The notes: generated from the sequence alone by a model not told the origin. DNA of 45,074 nt from a phage (GCA_028473545.1 GCA_028473545.1_4546.1), one strand, 5' to 3'. Shown: positions 33,174 through 41,197, counted from the first letter of the stretch. Numbers and translations are program-made.

Positions 33174-33767
33174 TTATTTAAGTGCGCTAGTCACCAGTGT
33201 TTTTTCCATATTGCGGAAGTCTTCCGGCGTCATGAGTATTTTGGACCCATCCTCGCCAGTGAGCACTACCATAGGCTGGACTTCTTGATCTGCCACACCG
33301 AAATTGGCAGCTTTAACCGTCTTTCCGAACGAGGCCACCGTATCCTCGGCAACGCGCATTGCACTGTTATACGCATTAATCTCGCCATCCAGGCGCACGG
33401 ACAGGTCCGAAGGCTTGAACGCGCCGCCGGTCTTGATAGGCCAACCTTTGAGGCTGTCGAATTGCGCTGCCGTTGTATCGATCTGAATCTCGTCATGCAC
33501 GGTCATGTGCGACTCACCCAGTAGTGCGGCATACGCAACCAGATCAACAATATTGTCTTCCTGGTGCTTACGGTGCTGGCGCACCAGCTTCAGGCAGATC
33601 AGGAAGGTCCAGGCTTCTTGCTCGGTAAGGTCGCGACCGGTAAGCGCGTTAAACACGGCAGCGATTTGCTTCGCGCTGCGTTCTTCTTTCGCGTTATCAT
33701 AGCCGTTCTCTTTCCCGCGCTGTTCCATAGTGGTGGCGGCGTTCTTGCAGTATTCAAATGCTTTCAT
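33174..33767 (-). CDS. Hypothetical protein
   Basis: Start at MKAFEYCK (internal ATG; the ORF-track start is a TTG); about 197 aa. Confidence 0.45.
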   Translation of the reverse strand: MKAFEYCKNAATTMEQRGKENGYDNAKEERSAKQIAAVFNALTGRDLTEQEAWTFLICLKLVRQHRKHQEDNIVDLVAYAALLGESHMTVHDEIQIDTTAAQFDSLKGWPIKTGGAFKPSDLSVRLDGEINAYNSAMRVAEDTVASFGKTVKAANFGVADQEVQPMVVLTGEDGSKILMTPEDFRNMEKTLVTSALK

Positions 33768-33818
33768 GATGTTTTCCTTTTTAGTGGGGGCCGGATTGCC
33801 CCCGACGAGATAACTATA

Positions 33819-33842
33819 GTGCAACCAACCTATTGGTTGCAA
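33819..33842. promoter_or_regulatory. Palindromic pair of ATTGGTTGCA boxes
   Basis: TGCAACCAAcctATTGGTTGCA inverted repeat in the gap between two minus-strand genes. Confidence 0.35.
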
Positions 33843-34300: not shown

Positions 34301-34530
34301 TTTAAGCTCTCAATAAGGGTGTAGCGGGCGCTTCGCGCAGTAACGGAGTTGCATACAAAATGGCAACGCTTGGTTATGACAAGCCAGCCGGTGAGGTCCA
34401 GGCCCAGGATGTATTCCGGGCGGCTGGCGCGCATCACTCGGTCGCGGCGCGGGTCGATGTTATAGTCTCTTTGCATTTGGTCTACTACCGCGGGGTCGCG
34501 GTCGACGATTAAGATATTCATGTAACTCAC
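34297..34530 (-). CDS. Hypothetical small protein (start uncertain)
   Basis: 77-aa ORF overlapping the Dam-like gene 3' end by about 70 nt; internal ATGs at 34476 or 34434 would shorten it. Confidence 0.3.
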   Translation of the reverse strand: MSYMNILIVDRDPAVVDQMQRDYNIDPRRDRVMRASRPEYILGLDLTGWLVITKRCHFVCNSVTARSARYTLIESLK

Positions 34531-34987
34531 TCTCGCTCATTATTTCAATTTGTGCGCTGCCGATTGGCGGCGCTTCGTCAAAGATTATCAATTGCTGGCA
34601 CTTGTTATTGCTCGGCCCGACTTCACCGGTGACAGCGTGTATAAATCTCACCCGCCAGTCCAGAAGAATTATCAGGTTTGCAGTCTTCCGGGCCAGCCTC
34701 GCCCACTTCGTCGACGTGTCCTGATTCAGTAGCATGACCGTCCGGCGTCCGTGCGCTGCGCATTCGACCCACGGCAGCGGATCGGAATACGGCGGATTGC
34801 ACCACTTCCACCCTTTCAACTCTGCCCAGACCACATCAAGCGCGCTATGTTCTGCCGTGAAGTAGCGCGGTAGCAGGTGGTTGGCATCGCTTGCCGCCAT
34901 ATCGTAACGGAATCGGTATTTCCGACGAAGCGGTTTGAATAAAGCTGGCGGCGTGCGCCAGCTATCTTTTTGCTCACTCTTCTGCAT
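34460..34987 (-). CDS. DNA N6-adenine methyltransferase (phage Dam-type)
   Basis: 175 aa; catalytic NPPY motif (WCNPPYS); N-terminal WRTPP. Confidence 0.65.
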   Translation of the reverse strand: MQKSEQKDSWRTPPALFKPLRRKYRFRYDMAASDANHLLPRYFTAEHSALDVVWAELKGWKWCNPPYSDPLPWVECAAHGRRTVMLLNQDTSTKWARLARKTANLIILLDWRVRFIHAVTGEVGPSNNKCQQLIIFDEAPPIGSAQIEIMSESELHEYLNRRPRPRGSRPNAKRL

Positions 34988-35438
34988 GACCTGGATCTAT
35001 CGCGTATAAAGGGACTTTATTGCCGGTTTTCATAACGCGCTGGACGCGCTTTGACTCCTCGGCGCTCATTGGGCGCATATCAGTGCTATAACCACCGTTT
35101 GATGTGTGCCGCCACGCTATCAGCACCAGATCTTTCCGGTCGATCTTAGACTGGCGGCCCTTCGGTCGCACGTACGCCTCGGCCCGTTTGCAATGCTCGC
35201 GCAGACCTTCGGCAGTGATGCGGTTTAGTGCAACGCTGGTTGTGTATCCGGTGCGCTGCATAATCCCCATCAATTCGAAAAGCAGTTCGAAGCGTTCCTC
35301 TAACTCCCGGCGCACTTTCTTCTCTCCTTCATATAGCGCCTGGTTGGTGTCCGCCAGCGCGTTCGCGCGTTCGGCCTGTTCACGGGCTTCGAGGCATTGC
35401 GCGGCCCAGTATGCTTTTTCTTCTTGTAAAATTTTCAT
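34974..35438 (-). CDS. Hypothetical protein with N-terminal coiled-coil
   Basis: Start at MKILQEEK with ggag RBS; preceded on the minus strand by a hairpin, a T-run and two ATTGGTTGC boxes (35492-35518). Confidence 0.45.
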   Translation of the reverse strand: MKILQEEKAYWAAQCLEAREQAERANALADTNQALYEGEKKVRRELEERFELLFELMGIMQRTGYTTSVALNRITAEGLREHCKRAEAYVRPKGRQSKIDRKDLVLIAWRHTSNGGYSTDMRPMSAEESKRVQRVMKTGNKVPLYAIDPGHAEE

Positions 35439-35518
35439 CGTGTTGTCTCCAGGTATTAAAAAGGGCGTCCAACCGGACACCCTTAAGATAATGCAACCAA
35501 TCTAATTACGCAACCAAT

Positions 35519-35842
35519 TTATTCATAAAAATTCGGGTCGCGCGCTACATCTACCAGATAAAGGTTGCTCATTCGGTTGCCGTAGTGCCCTGGCGTGCGC
35601 TGGCGACACACAACTGCGAAGCCTGGAGGGATTGTATTGCCGGTTTCGATAATCCACGCCACGCGCGCGCCAGACAGCTTCTTGCCGTTGCATTCGATAC
35701 GCGTACCGCCATCGGCAGTGTTAAGGTTGCCAATCTTGCAGCCGGTGGACTTCAGACGGATGACGCCGGTTTTGCTGTCATAGGTGAATAACTGGTTAGT
35801 CATTGCGACCGAGAAGTCGATGGCTTCGAATGTAGTGTTCAT
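35519..35842 (-). CDS. Hypothetical protein (possibly nuclease-like)
   Basis: 107 aa with Cys/His residues (CKIGN..IECNGKK); assignment uncertain. Confidence 0.4.
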   Translation of the reverse strand: MNTTFEAIDFSVAMTNQLFTYDSKTGVIRLKSTGCKIGNLNTADGGTRIECNGKKLSGARVAWIIETGNTIPPGFAVVCRQRTPGHYGNRMSNLYLVDVARDPNFYE

Positions 35843-36534
35843 TTTAAATTTTCCTCATTGACTGCTATTGCGAAGCCGCGCGGAGTGAGCGACCGTATTA
35901 ATTTGGTGCGGGCAGATTTGCCACCGAGGCGACTATACTGCTTCGAGTACCCTTTTTCAACGAATACCGGCTTTTTCTCCGGCATACGAAAGCCATTGCC
36001 AGTCCATAAACAGGTCAGCTTTGGATATGAATCGCGGTCGTTGATGTATTCCGGGAACAACGGATGTACGTCATCCTCCGGCAGATAGCCGCCATACTCC
36101 CACGGATCAAACGAGTGGTCAGGCTTACGCCACTGGGTAGATAGCACACTGCGCGGATTCTCAATCATATATGGCACTTCAAAGAAGTCACCCAGGTAAG
36201 CGGCAATCTTCGCGGTGCGCACTGCCTTAAGCTGAAAGGCGGGGTCTTTCGCACGCTTGCACGGGAAAGCTGGCGCACCGCTCACCGCCAGATCCGTACA
36301 CGGCGGAAACGCGTAGATAATATCCGGCGTGCCGAAATCGCCATTCATCGCGCGGTCCACGAAGTCCAGATCGATAAACTCGTTACGATAGCGGATACCG
36401 CGACCATAAATCCGGTAGTCAAGGTAAGACCCGTGATCGGCTTCCGAGTAGTTGAAACAGTAGCATTTATGCCCCATCTCGGCAGCGCGCTCTATCATCA
36501 AGCCGCTGCCGTCAAATAATGACCAGATAATCAC
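35839..36534 (-). CDS. Short DNA (cytosine-5)-methyltransferase-like protein
   Basis: 231 aa; motif I-like SLFDGSG, motif IV-like FPPCTDLAVSGA, ENV-like MIENP; no obvious target-recognition domain. Confidence 0.45.
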   Translation of the reverse strand: MIIWSLFDGSGLMIERAAEMGHKCYCFNYSEADHGSYLDYRIYGRGIRYRNEFIDLDFVDRAMNGDFGTPDIIYAFPPCTDLAVSGAPAFPCKRAKDPAFQLKAVRTAKIAAYLGDFFEVPYMIENPRSVLSTQWRKPDHSFDPWEYGGYLPEDDVHPLFPEYINDRDSYPKLTCLWTGNGFRMPEKKPVFVEKGYSKQYSRLGGKSARTKLIRSLTPRGFAIAVNEENLK

Positions 36535-37955
36535 TTGCGCACCTTCTTAGCTTTCATGTATTCCATCAAGTCGTCCTGGATGTCGCGCTTACCATCGCGG
36601 CGGTCCGCCACCAGTTCGTCCAGTGTCCCGCGTGCCTGGATAATATAGACGAATACCGGTCGAGGGTGCCCGGCTTGCATCTGGCGAACTGGCCCGATAC
36701 GCTCCACGATCTGCGCAAAGTGCTCATAGTTCCACGTATCCGAGAAGATAGCCAGGTGATGTCCGCCGTCCTGCAAGTTAAGGCCGTGACCAGCCGATGC
36801 CGGGTGTGCGAACATGATGGGAATCTCGCCCCTGTTCCACGCTTCCATATCCTTATTGCCCTGCTTACCCTTACCCATCGCAACGCCGTGGGGAAACTTC
36901 TTCTTCAGACGTGCCAGGTCGTGCTTGTACTGGTACGCAACGAGCAACGGCGCTCCGTTCAACTCCTCTACGATACTTTCCAGCGCGTCCAGCTTGGCGT
37001 CGTGAATCTTCTCCCACTCGTCGGTCCGCTCTCCGTCTTCGTCCACCTTATACACGGCACCGGATGCAAGCTGAAGGCACTTGATGGTCTTAGCCGCAGC
37101 GTTCGCCGCTTCCACTGTTCCGCTTTCCAGTTCGGCAAATAGCTCACTCTCAAACTGGTCATAAATCTTGCGGGCTTTCTTCGGCAGGTCCACGACAACC
37201 GGCGTGTAGATTGGCTTGTCACATCCGAAGTATTCAGCCGCGTCCACGGTAAGGGATACATCGGACAGGCGCTGTTGGATCTCCTTCTCGGAGTTCTTTA
37301 GCGGGGCGTGCTGCATAGTGAAGCTGCCAGGCTTAACAGGCTTGCTAATAAACCAGCGATCGGTGAATGCCTTATAGCTACTGCCGAGTCGTTCGCCACC
37401 GTCGACAAACCACGTCTGGCCCCATAGGTCTTTCAGTCCGTTTGGTGCTGGTGTGCCGGTCAGGTTAATCCAGCGCCTGACGTGCTTATGTGCGATCGCC
37501 GCCAGTGCGCGTGCGCGCTTACTGCCTTGCTTGCTGCGATAGCCTTTCAGCTTAGTGGATTCATCGGCAACAACGACCGTAAAAGGCCACTCGTCGCCGC
37601 AATACTCGACAAGCCACTCAACAACATCGTAGTTGACACAAACCACGTTAGCGTTGCTCTCAAGCGCCGCAATGCGGTCCTTCTCTGGCCCGGTGCCGTC
37701 TACTACCAGCAGGGCGGGGAATCTCCATTTTTCTTGTTCCGGGGGCCACGTGCCGGACGCAACGCGCAGCGGGGCCAGCACCAGTACGCGGTCCTCCTGG
37801 TTGGACAGGATGCCAGTCTGGAACATTTTGTTTAGCGCCCACATAGTCGCGCCGGTTTTACCGGACCCCATTGTCGCCCAAATATTGCAGCGCTCATGCT
37901 TGAGAATAAACGCGGTTATCAATTTCTGATATTCGCGACGTCGGAATCGTGCCAT
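36531..37955 (-). CDS. SNF2/DEAD-like helicase
   Basis: Start at MARFRRREYQ (internal ATG at 37955); Walker A MGSGKTG, DExx box VVADEST, LTGTPAPNG motif. Confidence 0.65.
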   Translation of the reverse strand: MARFRRREYQKLITAFILKHERCNIWATMGSGKTGATMWALNKMFQTGILSNQEDRVLVLAPLRVASGTWPPEQEKWRFPALLVVDGTGPEKDRIAALESNANVVCVNYDVVEWLVEYCGDEWPFTVVVADESTKLKGYRSKQGSKRARALAAIAHKHVRRWINLTGTPAPNGLKDLWGQTWFVDGGERLGSSYKAFTDRWFISKPVKPGSFTMQHAPLKNSEKEIQQRLSDVSLTVDAAEYFGCDKPIYTPVVVDLPKKARKIYDQFESELFAELESGTVEAANAAAKTIKCLQLASGAVYKVDEDGERTDEWEKIHDAKLDALESIVEELNGAPLLVAYQYKHDLARLKKKFPHGVAMGKGKQGNKDMEAWNRGEIPIMFAHPASAGHGLNLQDGGHHLAIFSDTWNYEHFAQIVERIGPVRQMQAGHPRPVFVYIIQARGTLDELVADRRDGKRDIQDDLMEYMKAKKVRK

Positions 37956-38434: not shown

Positions 38435-38713
38435 CTACGCGACCAATTCAGCAACCAATAAATCGCAGTCGGCTATGTTGTCAATAACGCGAACGTCAGC
38501 ACCGCGGCGGGCCATTCGCTCATGTTCTCGCACCTGGTGCGGCTTCGGTTTTCCTCCGGGGCGCTTCACTTCGACGAATACTATGATGCCGTTGATGATA
38601 ATAATCAGGTCGGGCGCACCTGCGCGCCCCTCCCATGCCAGCTTGCGGCAGAATCCGCCAACCTCTTTCACCCGTCGCATCAGGTGACTTTGAATCTTGC
38701 CTTCTGGTGTCAT
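38435..38713 (-). CDS. VRR-NUC domain nuclease
   Basis: 92 aa; PD-(D/E)xK-type core DLIIIINGIIVFVEVK. Confidence 0.6.
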   Translation of the reverse strand: MTPEGKIQSHLMRRVKEVGGFCRKLAWEGRAGAPDLIIIINGIIVFVEVKRPGGKPKPHQVREHERMARRGADVRVIDNIADCDLLVAELVA

Positions 38714-38905: not shown

Positions 38906-41197
38906 TTACTTCCTGTACCGATACATAATGTCGCCTTCGGCGGCAAGTGGGAAACCTTTCGCCCATATAGGCAGGTCACACATCAGCGCGCAAAGCTCCT
39001 CGGTCGTGTAATCGTCGGTGTCCGGCACTTCGGTGATCAATTCATCGTGCACTGACAGGACGATTTCATAGCCCGCAGCTTCAACACCAGGCATGGACCA
39101 TGCGAGAATATCGCGGCACAACGCCTGTACGATGTTCTCCGTAAGTTTGCCGCCGTAGGTGTACTGGAATCCCCACTGGCGCGTCGTCTGATTCTCGCCC
39201 TGGTATTTGATGCGGGTACTGGTGCGCTTCTTGCCGGTGTCTTCGTCAATCTCGGTAGTGACAGACAGCGCGATTCCGGGGTAGCTCATGATTCGCCCTG
39301 ACGGCAACTCAACCTTCAGCCACCAGCCCGCGGCGTTCGGGTCGTCGCGTTCCTCGTCAAAGGTGGGGTCGTGCTTCGCCTTCGTGCGCACAATCTTGAG
39401 CGCTTTCTTGCCATCCGGGCGAACGTTCGCGCCAGCCCAGTATGCCTTACCTGGATTGCGTATCGCACATAACACCGCCTCCTCAAGCTCGGCCCAAAAG
39501 GCTACGGTCTTCGGGTGAGATTCACGCCACATACGTTTGATCGCGTCGCAGGTCAACCACACGTTTTTAGGCAGTATGTAAGTCGGGCGCTCGTCTTTCT
39601 TGCCGGGCTTCGGCGGGCGCTTCGCTTCGTTGATGCGGGCAAACTCATAACCGCGTTTAGCCGCCGCCCAAATATGATCGGGGAATGTTCCCTTCATGAC
39701 GTCAGCCATTGCGTACAGGTCGAGGCCCAGGTTTTTAGCAAACTGCAAGAACGCCGCGACGCCGCCACCATAGCCCAGTCCCAATTCACACGCCTTACCA
39801 ATCTGGCGTAGGTCTTTGCGGTTGGCTTTGATGTAGTCCGGGTCAAGGCCAAACATCTTACCGGCAGTTTCACAATAGATATCGCGTCCGGCCTTAAACA
39901 CCATAAGCGCGGTTTTCTCGCCAGCGATCCAGGCAAGGCCACGCCCTTCCACGTTGGAGTAGTCCGCTACAACAAACTTCTTGCCCTTAGCCGGGATAAT
40001 GCACCCGCGAACGGTCGAGGCGGTTAGCTTCGATATGTCATACGCCCAGTGCGCGGTCCCGCGTAACAGGGAGTTGATGCCGTTGGTGAGCATGTGCGAC
40101 CGTACCCAAAACGAGACGTCGCTCTCACCTTCGCGGCGCTTAATCTTCCCTTCGTGGTCATCACTGTACTCGCCACGTGCCAGGTTTTGAGGCTGAAAGC
40201 CTTTACCGGCCCAGCGTAGTGTGCGCTTTGCCCCACCATACTGAAGACAACCACGGCGGCGACCATCGGAAGAAAGGCCATTGACGAGCGGATTGTATTT
40301 AGTCGATGCCGTTGATGACGCGCCGAGGCGCATTTCAATAAGCACTTTGCCCTCGTCGGGGAAGTCTGGATCTTCCAGCAAATCATTCAGCGTGGATTTC
40401 TGCGCGTTGTGAATGGTGAACGCCGGGGCAATATCACGCAGGATTGGCAGGAAGTCATTACCGGTCAGTTTACCACCGAACAGTTCCCAGGCTTCTTCCT
40501 TCAATTCTTCTTTGTGCACCTGCACCGCCTTGATCGCGGCGTTCGCCAGGTCAACGTCCACATAGAAGCCACGGTCGTTAATCAACTGGTCGATACGCAG
40601 GATTTCATCTTCCTTCGGTGAGTTGCCCCAGTCCGGTATTCGCCAGTAGACTTCACGCATTGCGATAATATCCAGCGCGGCATAGCGCAGGAATTTAGCC
40701 CATTCTTCAGGGTGAGTCTCGCGCGTGTAGCGGCGGATTTTGTAGGTCTTAGGGGTCGGCTTACAAAATCGCTTAATCAGCGCCTTGCCTGCCTTATCCT
40801 TCGCGTGCTCTGCGTCAACGCCCAGCACCTGGCATTGCATATCGAGGCCACCCGGCAGCGCGTGACGAAAGGCCATAATCATCGTATCTTCGATCTGGCT
40901 TACCGGCAGGTCGATGCCCCACTTTTCACGGATAACCAGGCGGTCAAACAGGAGGCCGTTAGCCATCACTATTTTTGCTTTCTTGCGGGTTACCTGGCGT
41001 AGCGCCTTGCGCAGTTCACGCGGCATCGTGGGGGATTCAGTGGCGTCCCATGTCTGCACGCGGCCCTCGTCGATGGCGTAGGTGCAAATCATAATCTCGG
41101 TGGATGGGTGTTCTGCATAGGCATACGCACCTGCTTTCTTCAGGTCCACCCCGCTATATGTCTCGGTGTCAAGAAACAGGCGTTCGAAGTATTTCAT
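38906..41197 (-). CDS. DNA polymerase, family A (Pol I-like) with 3'-5' exonuclease domain
   Basis: 763 aa; exo motif FLDTETYSG; polymerase motifs DYSNVEGRGLAWIAGE, RQIGKACELGLGYGGG, VLSVHDELITEV. Confidence 0.85.
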   Translation of the reverse strand: MKYFERLFLDTETYSGVDLKKAGAYAYAEHPSTEIMICTYAIDEGRVQTWDATESPTMPRELRKALRQVTRKKAKIVMANGLLFDRLVIREKWGIDLPVSQIEDTMIMAFRHALPGGLDMQCQVLGVDAEHAKDKAGKALIKRFCKPTPKTYKIRRYTRETHPEEWAKFLRYAALDIIAMREVYWRIPDWGNSPKEDEILRIDQLINDRGFYVDVDLANAAIKAVQVHKEELKEEAWELFGGKLTGNDFLPILRDIAPAFTIHNAQKSTLNDLLEDPDFPDEGKVLIEMRLGASSTASTKYNPLVNGLSSDGRRRGCLQYGGAKRTLRWAGKGFQPQNLARGEYSDDHEGKIKRREGESDVSFWVRSHMLTNGINSLLRGTAHWAYDISKLTASTVRGCIIPAKGKKFVVADYSNVEGRGLAWIAGEKTALMVFKAGRDIYCETAGKMFGLDPDYIKANRKDLRQIGKACELGLGYGGGVAAFLQFAKNLGLDLYAMADVMKGTFPDHIWAAAKRGYEFARINEAKRPPKPGKKDERPTYILPKNVWLTCDAIKRMWRESHPKTVAFWAELEEAVLCAIRNPGKAYWAGANVRPDGKKALKIVRTKAKHDPTFDEERDDPNAAGWWLKVELPSGRIMSYPGIALSVTTEIDEDTGKKRTSTRIKYQGENQTTRQWGFQYTYGGKLTENIVQALCRDILAWSMPGVEAAGYEIVLSVHDELITEVPDTDDYTTEELCALMCDLPIWAKGFPLAAEGDIMYRYRK

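What the first reader, a model, noticed from the sequence alone, without database searches (positions are those of the whole stretch)
35839..36534. Minimal C5-methyltransferase-like protein lacking an obvious target-recognition domain
The 231-aa protein has motif I (SLFDGSG), the catalytic Pro-Cys motif (FPPCTDLAVSGA) and an ENV-like motif, but is about 100-150 aa shorter than typical C5 methyltransferases with no evident target-recognition domain. It could be a methyltransferase that borrows specificity from a partner, a non-canonical pyrimidine-modifying enzyme, or an inactive DNA-binding decoy.
Basis: partly seen in the sequence, partly recalled or inferred. Interest (0 to 1): 0.5.

Follow-up and report, generated by a model that had tools for sequence, protein, structure and literature searches.

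The report
Compact phage C5-cytosine DNA methyltransferase
This gene encodes a real but ordinary member of a very widespread family of unusually small phage DNA cytosine-C5 methyltransferases, one of which has already been shown to make 5-methylcytosine on its own, so it is neither a decoy nor a new kind of enzyme.

Summary
The 231-aa ORF at 35839-36534 (minus strand) and all three quoted motifs are there. The window is a Dhillonvirus (HK578-like E. coli siphophage). Near-identical genes in GenBank are already annotated "Dcm-like C5 cytosine methyltransferase".

A 53%-identical, full-length homologue is the 236-aa Dcm of a KarlJaspers-like phage. Expressed alone in E. coli, it gave 5mC by LC-MS, dependent on residues that align with C79, E125 and K172 here. 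It triggers retron Ec86.

The family does lack the classical ~100-aa variable TRD. In its place is a short segment that is more conserved than the catalytic core, and DNMT3 is the closest solved architecture. No neighbouring gene is conserved, and there are no Cx-SAM or hypermodification genes. The partner, exotic-chemistry and decoy readings are therefore not supported.

Still open: the true target sequence (CCWGG is assumed, not mapped) and how so small an enzyme reads it.

The parts
35839..36534 (-). Complete 231-aa ORF: compact orphan C5-cytosine DNA methyltransferase (phrog_757 family; homologue of phage K42/KarlJaspers 'Dcm')
36502..36516 (-). Motif I, F7-D-G9-S10-G11 (FxGxG; SAM-binding loop after strand beta-1)
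   Evidence: F7, G9, S10 and G11 are invariant in A1. Aligned to CmoX 'FAGGGG' by hhalign and to PF00145 positions 4 onward in homologues.
36274..36309 (-). Motif IV, F76-P-P-C79-T-D-L-A-V-S-G-A87: catalytic Pro-Cys loop with nucleophile C79
   Evidence: P77, P78, C79 and T80 are invariant in A1. Cys is present in 95% of 102 diverse representatives. Aligned to CmoX 'SPPCSAFSVAGS'. C79 aligns with K42 Dcm C82, mutated in the inactive mutant.
36154..36162 (-). Motif VI, E125-N126-P127 (ENV-like; Glu contacts the target cytosine)
   Evidence: E125 99%, N126 92% and P127 98% conserved. Aligned to CmoX 'ENV'. E125 aligns with K42 E128.
35899..36126 (-). Residues 137-212: short family-specific segment in place of a classical TRD. 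It includes P144, D168, Y170, K172, T174, W177, P185 and the basic LGGKSxxTK loop.
   Evidence: About 115 CmoX residues have no counterpart here. Entropy is 1.72 bits for 137-179 against 2.41 for the core. K172 aligns with K42 K175. The DNA-contact role is inferred.
35848..35898 (-). C-terminal motif I213-R214-S-L-T-P218-R-G-F-A-I-A-V...N229 plus the final helix. Probably the motif X equivalent (DNMT3-type G-R-S-W-S-V-P), though it also resembles motif IX (RxLTxRExA).
   Evidence: R214 93%, S215 82%, P218 90% and G220 91% conserved. hhalign places it on CmoX 'VGRMVPPLMMKAIA' with low confidence. DNMT3A 'LLGRSWSVPVIRHLF' verified. HaeIII motifs IX and X shown. Helix 219-229 in the model. The assignment is unresolved.
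36531..36548 (-). Translational coupling signal: AAGAAGG Shine-Dalgarno-like sequence (36542-36548) and GTGA start/stop overlap with the upstream SNF2 helicase gene
   Evidence: Sequence read. Helicase identified by PF00176 E=1.2e-10 and phrog_62.
34460..34987 (-). Context: second orphan methyltransferase of the same operon-like block (Dam-type N6-adenine MTase, 175 aa)
   Evidence: PF05869 Dam E=1.2e-33. phrog_111 E=2e-53.

Best explanation
The ORF encodes an active, stand-alone, SAM-dependent DNA cytosine-C5 methyltransferase of a compact family of about 230 aa found almost only in phages and prophages. It is an orphan methyltransferase with no cognate restriction enzyme. Mechanism, inferred from the family chemistry and conserved residues: the F-x-G-S-G loop and the C-terminal R-S-L element hold S-adenosylmethionine. 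The target cytosine is flipped into the pocket. Cys79 of the FPPC loop attacks C6, Glu125 of the ENP motif and Arg136 hold the base, the methyl group goes to C5, and beta-elimination releases the enzyme. The usual large, variable recognition domain is replaced by a short, highly conserved segment (about 137-212, with K172 and a basic GGKSxxTK loop), an arrangement closest to the DNMT3 catalytic domain. The gene sits in the replication module. It is translationally coupled to an SNF2 helicase gene and lies two genes from a Dam methylase, so it would be made while phage DNA replicates and would methylate progeny genomes. The most likely benefit is protection from 5mC-sensitive host restriction. 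The target is probably CCWGG or a site overlapping it, but this has not been mapped. The known cost is that this methylation is sensed by retron Ec86 (Eco1). Shown for a 53%-identical homologue in the literature: 5mC formation, dependence on the catalytic residues, activity without other phage proteins, and retron triggering. Shown here: family membership, fold, motif conservation and lack of a conserved partner. Inferred: activity of this particular protein, its target site, its anti-restriction role, and DNA contacts by residues 137-212.
Against: This protein itself gets no hit from Pfam, NCBIfam or PDB sequence searches. Sequence-level support covers only motifs I-IV in Pfam, and the end-to-end hhalign probability is only 56%. 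No experiment exists on this protein or on any Dhillonvirus copy. The CCWGG specificity was assumed in the retron study by analogy with host Dcm. There is no detectable similarity to E. coli Dcm beyond motif IV (E=0.22). Dcm-positive MG1655 did not itself give high msDNA methylation or trigger the retron, so the phage enzyme may differ from host Dcm in site, substrate form or level. KP36's EcoRII resistance could be due to host Dcm. BASEL found no simple link between methyltransferase genes and restriction resistance in Drexlerviridae.
Confidence: 0.8

Rival explanations
1. The enzyme is catalytically competent but depends on a partner protein, such as the translationally coupled SNF2 helicase, for DNA targeting or sequence specificity.
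For: 4-nt start/stop overlap with the SNF2 helicase gene. A helicase lies within about 1 kb of the gene in KarlJaspers and KP36. BFVD contains 1,397-aa ('Helicase/UvrB') and 1,126-aa phage proteins carrying this module as a domain. The recognition segment is very small.
Against: The helicases near the gene in Drexlerviridae show no similarity to the window's helicase (E=0.13 and 0.33). Certrevirus, Arthrobacter-phage and prophage copies have no helicase next to them. K42 Dcm alone, expressed from a plasmid in E. coli, methylated msDNA and triggered the retron.
Confidence: 0.05
2. The enzyme transfers a group other than methyl, for example carboxymethyl from Cx-SAM made by host CmoA, as phage CmoX does. 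It would produce 5-carboxymethylcytosine instead of, or in addition to, 5mC.
Against: The homologue raised 5mC in a CmoA-positive host, whereas SpCmoX accepts only Cx-SAM. The best structural match, DNMT3A/B, is a SAM-dependent methylase with Arg at the same place (G-R-S-W-S-V-P), so Arg is not diagnostic. As printed, hhalign puts Ser215, not Arg214, on CmoX R350. The motif reads FPPC, not SPPC. No CmoA or CmoY-like ligase genes are in the window, whereas they flank CmoX.
Confidence: 0.05
3. The protein is an inactive methyltransferase-fold DNA binder (decoy or regulator).
For: No Pfam or NCBIfam hit. Missing classical TRD. A small distant subgroup has Ser in place of the catalytic Cys.
Against: Cys79, Glu125, the FxGxG loop and the other motifs are 90-99% conserved in 102 divergent representatives, which fits selection for catalysis. 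The homologue is active and its active-site mutant is not.
Confidence: 0.03
4. Its physiological substrate is not double-stranded phage DNA but RNA (DNMT2-like tRNA methylation) or single-stranded/hairpin DNA.
Confidence: 0.04

Closest known systems
Phage K42 / KarlJaspers (Bas06) 'Dcm-like C5 cytosine methyltransferase', the trigger of retron Ec86/Eco1 (bioRxiv 10.1101/2023.08.16.553469; published as Wang et al., Cell Rep 2024;43:114857)
   Same: Same family (phrog_757) and same length class (236 vs 231 aa). 53% identity over the full length, E=1e-84. The catalytic residues C82, E128 and K175 align with C79, E125 and K172. Both are orphan genes of a virulent E. coli siphophage.
   Different: Different phage lineage (Drexlerviridae/Hanrivervirus vs Dhillonvirus) and different gene neighbours. 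K176 of K42 is Leu173 here. Residues 187-203 diverge. No experiment has been done on the Dhillonvirus protein.
DNMT3A/DNMT3B catalytic domain (eukaryotic de novo C5-MTases)
   Different: Only 13-16% identity and no sequence-level hit. DNMT3 works as a dimer/tetramer with DNMT3L and reads CpG. Nothing is known about the oligomeric state or target of the phage enzyme. The resemblance is architectural and membership is not claimed.
E. coli Dcm / M.EcoRII-type CCWGG methyltransferases
   Same: Same chemistry (5mC). The family is labelled 'Dcm-like' in GenBank. Circumstantial links to CCWGG: mutating the msDNA CCTGG abolishes retron triggering, and KP36 DNA is EcoRII-resistant.
   Different: 472 aa vs 231 aa. 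hhalign finds only motif IV (E=0.22), so no TRD homology exists from which to infer CCWGG specificity. Host Dcm did not substitute for the phage enzyme in MG1655.
SpCmoX, phage DNA cytosine C5-carboxymethyltransferase (PMC12783734; PDB 8yf3)
   Different: 372 aa with a full TRD. SPPC plus R350. Flanked by CmoA and CmoY. Those genes are absent here, and the family homologue makes 5mC.

Membership tests
C5-cytosine DNA methyltransferases (PF00145 superfamily) | Motif I FxGxG SAM-binding loop after the first beta strand | tested here: met
   F7-D-G9-S10-G11, invariant in A1. Aligned to PF00145 positions 4 onward in homologues and to CmoX FAGGGG.
C5-cytosine DNA methyltransferases (PF00145 superfamily) | Motif IV Pro-Cys catalytic dipeptide | tested here: met
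   P78-C79 invariant in A1. Cys is in 95% of 102 diverse representatives. Aligned to CmoX SPPC.
C5-cytosine DNA methyltransferases (PF00145 superfamily) | Motif VI ENV | tested here: met
   E125-N126-P127 (Val replaced by Pro), 92-99% conserved. Aligned to CmoX ENV.
C5-cytosine DNA methyltransferases (PF00145 superfamily) | Motif VIII QxRxR | tested here: inconclusive
   Only W135-R136-K-P is present at the expected place. R136 is 90% conserved. The alignment in this region has low confidence.
C5-cytosine DNA methyltransferases (PF00145 superfamily) | Large variable target-recognition domain between motifs VIII and IX | tested here: not met
   About 115 CmoX residues have no counterpart. The substitute segment 137-212 is short and more conserved than the core.
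C5-cytosine DNA methyltransferases (PF00145 superfamily) | Motifs IX (RxLTxRE) and X (GNxVP) at the C-terminus | tested here: inconclusive
   There is one element, IRSLTPRGFAIAV, plus a final helix. It resembles motif IX of HaeIII (RRLTVRECARVQ) and DNMT3-type motif X (GRSWSVPV). hhalign puts it on CmoX motix X region with low confidence. There is no room for both motifs.
C5-cytosine DNA methyltransferases (PF00145 superfamily) | Score above the Pfam PF00145 gathering threshold | tested here: not met
   No hit for this protein even at E<=1. Some homologues pass (P0020 28.5 bits vs 22), and 33 of 58 hit at E<=1.
C5-cytosine DNA methyltransferases (PF00145 superfamily) | C5-MTase three-dimensional fold | tested here: met
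C5-cytosine DNA methyltransferases (PF00145 superfamily) | SAM-dependent formation of 5-methylcytosine in DNA | not testable with these tools
   Shown by LC-MS for the 53%-identical K42 Dcm. Not shown for this protein.
Compact phage orphan C5-MTase family (phrog_757; K42/KarlJaspers Dcm type) | Full-length match to the family profile, with length about 210-260 aa | tested here: met
   phrog_757 E=1.2e-81, residues 1-229. Family length distribution.
Compact phage orphan C5-MTase family (phrog_757; K42/KarlJaspers Dcm type) | Conservation of the residues mutated in the inactive K42 Dcm (C82, E128, K175, K176) | tested here: met
   C79, E125 and K172 align. K176 is Leu173 here, and is also variable in the family.
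Compact phage orphan C5-MTase family (phrog_757; K42/KarlJaspers Dcm type) | Orphan status (no adjacent restriction endonuclease), in a phage or prophage context | tested here: met
   Window neighbours are helicase, HNH, Dam, PNK and Pol A. Other lineages and prophages.
CmoX-type DNA cytosine C5-carboxymethyltransferases | 'SPPC' motif IV | tested here: not met
   The motif is A-F-P-P-C. The Ser position is Phe (89%) or Tyr/Trp in the family. Definition.
CmoX-type DNA cytosine C5-carboxymethyltransferases | Arg at the M.HhaI Asn304 position binding the Cx-SAM carboxylate | tested here: inconclusive
   Invariant R214 is within one residue of CmoX R350 in the hhalign alignment (S215 aligned as printed). 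DNMT3A has Arg there and uses SAM.
CmoX-type DNA cytosine C5-carboxymethyltransferases | Genomic association with CmoA (Cx-SAM synthase) and often a CmoY ligase | tested here: not met
   None among the window's replication-module ORFs, in contrast to S-B43.
E. coli Dcm / EcoRII-type CCWGG methyltransferases | Homologous TRD, or overall sequence similarity to Dcm | tested here: not met
   hhalign family profile vs E. coli Dcm aligns only 25 columns around motif IV, E=0.22.
E. coli Dcm / EcoRII-type CCWGG methyltransferases | Methylation of the inner cytosine of CCWGG | not testable with these tools
   Only circumstantial evidence: msDNA CCTGG mutants, KP36 EcoRII resistance, and CCWGG not avoided in the window.

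The most novel reading that the evidence does not exclude
The compact family may be a distinct architectural class of C5-methyltransferase. In this reading it reads its target with a fixed mini-module and possibly by dimerisation, as DNMT3 does. Its true specificity or substrate form would differ from host Dcm (for example the outer cytosine of CCWGG, a shorter motif, or hairpin/ssDNA), which would explain why host Dcm does not trigger retron Ec86 while the phage enzyme does. A further possibility is that the FPPC + Arg214 active site lets it also accept Cx-SAM from host CmoA.
Probability: 0.15. Interest if true: 0.6.

Novelty: already known. Interest (0 to 1): 0.25.

Why it matters
For this window it settles an annotation. 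The gene is a functional-looking orphan C5 DNA methyltransferase, a standard phage anti-restriction accessory, and a predicted liability against retron Ec86/Eco1.

More generally, the family is very common in therapeutic-type coliphages and Klebsiella phages (Dhillonvirus, Drexlerviridae including Webervirus, Vequintavirinae and others). It is nevertheless invisible to Pfam and NCBIfam for many members, so it is often left as "hypothetical". KP36, for example, was published as having no cytosine methyltransferase.

Its target site has never been mapped and no structure exists. At about 230 aa it is among the smallest C5-MTases. A mapped specificity and a DNA complex would show the minimum needed for sequence reading by this fold, and might yield a compact tool enzyme.

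Tried and rejected
- **Single-sequence searches** of Pfam, NCBIfam and PDB sequences gave nothing. A 58-sequence family profile against PDB sequences gave only a spurious kinase hit.
- **hhalign of the family against E. coli Dcm** aligned only motif IV (E=0.22), so specificity cannot be transferred from Dcm.
- **Model coordinates** are not exposed to scripts. I could not superpose the model on M.HhaI, DNMT3A or CmoX to decide which residue occupies the Asn304/R350 position or which loops face DNA.
- **N-terminal extensions** of longer family members (326-453 aa) have no Pfam domain, except an HNH_2 in P0268.
- **Restriction-enzyme neighbours in bacterial genomes**, which might have revealed specificity, were not found. 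There are only 30 loci. The two chromosomal contexts I examined (L014, L024) are prophage, with other orphan methylases.
- **Helicase partnership** was rejected because the nearby helicases in different lineages are unrelated.
- **Literature searches** for a mapped methylation motif found only indirect restriction-digest data for KP36. The published Cell Reports version of the retron paper is not held, so I relied on the preprint.

Full report
**Observation.**
The window is a Dhillonvirus genome (HK578-like E. coli siphophage). A 6-kb stretch around the finding is 97.7% identical to Escherichia phage vB_EcoS_WF5505, and 143 of 161 matching records are Escherichia phages. The ORF listing gives one ORF at 35839..36534 on the minus strand, GTG start, 231 aa. 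The GTG overlaps the stop codon of an upstream SNF2-type helicase gene (GTGA) and is preceded by AAGAAGG at a 7-nt spacing (helicase). The stop overlaps the ATG of a small HNH gene (ATGA).

**Is it a real, conserved gene?**
Yes. It matches PHROG family phrog_757 ("DNA methyltransferase") at E=1.2e-81 over its whole length. tblastn finds it in 1,510 phage records: Escherichia 576, Klebsiella 521, Salmonella 107 and others, including Arthrobacter phages. The large protein database holds 2,882 90%-identity clusters. An exhaustive profile search finds 1,962 50%-identity clusters at E<=0.001 and 182 at E<=1e-30, and nearly all are 210-260 aa. The small size is therefore a family trait. GenBank annotations vary from "hypothetical protein" to "Dcm-like C5 cytosine methyltransferase". 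The latter label is used for the 98.3%-identical protein of BASEL phage Oekolampad.

**Is it a C5-methyltransferase?**
Sequence profiles are weak, which explains the patchy annotation.
- Pfam, NCBIfam and PDB sequence searches give nothing for this protein. A family profile finds no methyltransferase in PDB sequences.
- PF00145 does hit 33 of 58 homologues at E<=1, best 1.3e-6 and above the gathering score, but only over profile positions 4-92 of 324, which cover motifs I-IV.
- With a more diverse family alignment (102 sequences), hhalign against an alignment of CmoX-type phage C5-MTases gives E=1.1e-4 (probability 56%) from residue 1 to 228. Motif I, PPC/SPPC, ENP/ENV and the C-terminal element appear in the same order. 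About 115 CmoX residues have no counterpart.
- No thymidylate-synthase-like fold appears.

**Experimental anchor from the literature.**
A preprint on retron Ec86 (10.1101/2023.08.16.553469) was later published as Wang et al., Cell Rep 2024;43:114857, according to the reference list read. It isolated escape mutants of phage K42, which is 95% identical to KarlJaspers/Bas06. All escape mutants disrupted a 711-bp "dcm" gene.
- Expressing this Dcm alone in E. coli was toxic only when the retron was present.
- LC-MS showed high 5mC in the msDNA with wild-type Dcm and low 5mC with a C82A/E128A/K175A/K176A mutant or empty vector.
- Changing the CCTGG in the msDNA stem abolished defence.

I fetched KarlJaspers. 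Its 236-aa Dcm is 53% identical to the window protein over the full length (E=1e-84), and C82, E128 and K175 align with C79, E125 and K172. A member of this exact family is thus an autonomous, catalytically active 5mC-forming enzyme.

**What replaces the TRD?**
Across 102 divergent representatives the catalytic positions are 90-99% conserved: C79 95%, E125 99%, N126 92%, P127 98%, R136 90%. The segment where a TRD would sit is short. Its first part (137-179, with P144, D168, Y170, K172, T174, W177) is more conserved than the N-terminal core as a whole, at 1.72 versus 2.41 bits of column entropy. This is the opposite of a classical variable TRD. It suggests a single specificity, or a structural role, shared by the whole family.

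The closest solved architecture is the DNMT3 catalytic domain, which also has a minimal recognition region. The C-terminal invariant element I-R214-S-L-T-P-R-G-F-A-x-A-V resembles two things:
- motif IX of bacterial enzymes (HaeIII RRLTVRECARVQ);
- the DNMT3A motif X region LLGRSWSVPVIRHLF (sequence verified).

hhalign places it on the CmoX motif X region with low confidence and a register uncertain by one residue. Without model coordinates I could not settle this.

**Rivals.**
- *Borrowed specificity.* Neighbours differ in Dhillonvirus, Hanrivervirus, Webervirus, Certrevirus, an Arthrobacter phage and prophages. The helicases that lie near the gene in KarlJaspers and KP36 are unrelated to the window's SNF2 helicase. 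The homologue works alone. Fusions of the module to large helicase-like proteins exist in uncultured phages, but they look like ordinary domain shuffling.
- *Other chemistry.* CmoX carboxymethyltransferases are defined by SPPC plus Arg350 in place of HhaI Asn304, and by CmoA/CmoY neighbours. This family has FPPC and an invariant Arg nearby. However, DNMT3A has Arg in the corresponding G-R-S-W motif and is known independently to be SAM-dependent. The homologue made 5mC in a CmoA-positive host, whereas SpCmoX accepts only Cx-SAM. The window has no CmoA, ligase or hydroxymethylase genes.
- *Decoy.* This is contradicted by conservation of the catalytic residues and by the mutant data.
- *RNA or ssDNA substrate.* DNMT2 scores lower than the DNA enzymes.

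**Target sequence and role.**
The CCWGG assignment in the retron paper was made by analogy with host Dcm. At the profile level the family shares nothing with E. coli Dcm beyond motif IV (E=0.22). Circumstantial support for CCWGG or an overlapping site:
- the msDNA CCTGG mutants;
- Klebsiella phage KP36, whose DNA has 155 predicted EcoRII sites yet was not cut by EcoRII. Its authors reported no cytosine methyltransferase gene, but its gp74 is a 44%-identical family member (E=3e-52). Host Dcm is a confounder there;
- the window itself, where CCWGG is not avoided (151 observed, 163 expected), while AAGCTT, GCCGGC, GGCGCC, GGGCCC, CTGCAG and CGGCCG are absent against 9-22 expected.

One oddity remains. 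Dcm-positive MG1655 neither methylated the msDNA strongly nor triggered the retron. The phage enzyme may therefore differ from host Dcm in site, substrate form or simply amount. Bacterial-genome copies are rare. The two chromosomal contexts I examined lie in prophages next to RecT/RecE-like genes, terminase and other orphan methylases, with no restriction enzyme. The BASEL study found no simple correlation between methyltransferase genes and restriction resistance in Drexlerviridae, so the anti-restriction role remains an inference.

**Verdict.**
The gene is a known, widespread, already annotated phage orphan methyltransferase with an experimentally characterised relative. The exotic interpretations are not supported. 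What is still unknown is the real recognition sequence and how a protein of about 230 aa with a fixed mini-module achieves it. That is of moderate interest to specialists and does not make this locus novel.

Noticed in passing
window 1-45074 (whole genome): Strong elimination of several 6-bp palindromes: AAGCTT 0 vs 15.6 expected, GCCGGC 0 vs 21.5, GGCGCC 0 vs 19.7, GGGCCC 0 vs 13.7, CTGCAG 0 vs 8.7, CGGCCG 0 vs 8.7, CAGCTG 1 vs 13.1. CCWGG (151 vs 163) and GATC (151 vs 211) are retained. The phage seems to combine restriction-site avoidance with Dam and C5 methylation.
   Followed up: partly
L009:17553-18245 (Klebsiella phage KP36 gp74, NC_029099): The 2013 KP36 paper stated that the phage has no cytosine methyltransferase and attributed complete EcoRII resistance to host Dcm. 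gp74 is a 44%-identical member of this compact family (E=3e-52), so the phage enzyme may be responsible.
   Followed up: partly
window 35519-35842 (-): A 107-aa HNH endonuclease-like ORF (phrog_99, E=3.5e-15; no Pfam hit) whose ATG overlaps the methyltransferase stop codon. It is annotated 'putative homing endonuclease' in relatives. Several close relatives align across this region in 3-4 pieces, suggesting indels nearby.
   Followed up: no
window 34974-35480 (-): A 168-aa ORF that PHROGs labels 'DNA ligase' (phrog_10530, E=1e-96). It has no Pfam domain and is far too small for a ligase, so the label looks unreliable.
   Followed up: no
window 38906-41197 (-) and 38435-38713 (-): The 763-aa family A DNA polymerase matches Pfam DNA_pol_A only over residues 393-482. 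It also hits an 'endonuclease' PHROG (phrog_93) at residues 465-559. The same PHROG matches the separate 92-aa VRR-NUC ORF just downstream. This may reflect a composite PHROG or an insertion in the polymerase.
   Followed up: no
proteins P0225, P0238, P0246, P0251 (distant family representatives): A small divergent subgroup has Ser in place of the catalytic Cys (PPS) and E-[S/G]-P in place of ENP. These could be inactive or mechanistically different relatives.
   Followed up: no
BFVD A0A6J5SE15 (1,397 aa) and A0A6J5NPY6 (1,126 aa); protein P0268 (348 aa): The compact methyltransferase module also occurs as a domain of very large uncultured-phage proteins, one annotated 'Helicase/UvrB, N-terminal'. 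It is also found fused to an HNH_2 endonuclease domain.
   Followed up: no
window 33174-33842 (-): A 222-aa ORF with DUF6378 (E=1.3e-9). Its weaker PHROG matches (phrog_474, phrog_1167) are labelled 'phosphofructokinase', while its best PHROG hit (phrog_9871) has unknown function. It sits between the PNK-like gene and the tail-fibre region.
   Followed up: no
retron Ec86 study (10.1101/2023.08.16.553469): Host Dcm in MG1655 did not give high msDNA methylation or retron activation, whereas the phage enzyme did, although both are assumed to target CCWGG. The paper as read does not explain this.
   Followed up: partly
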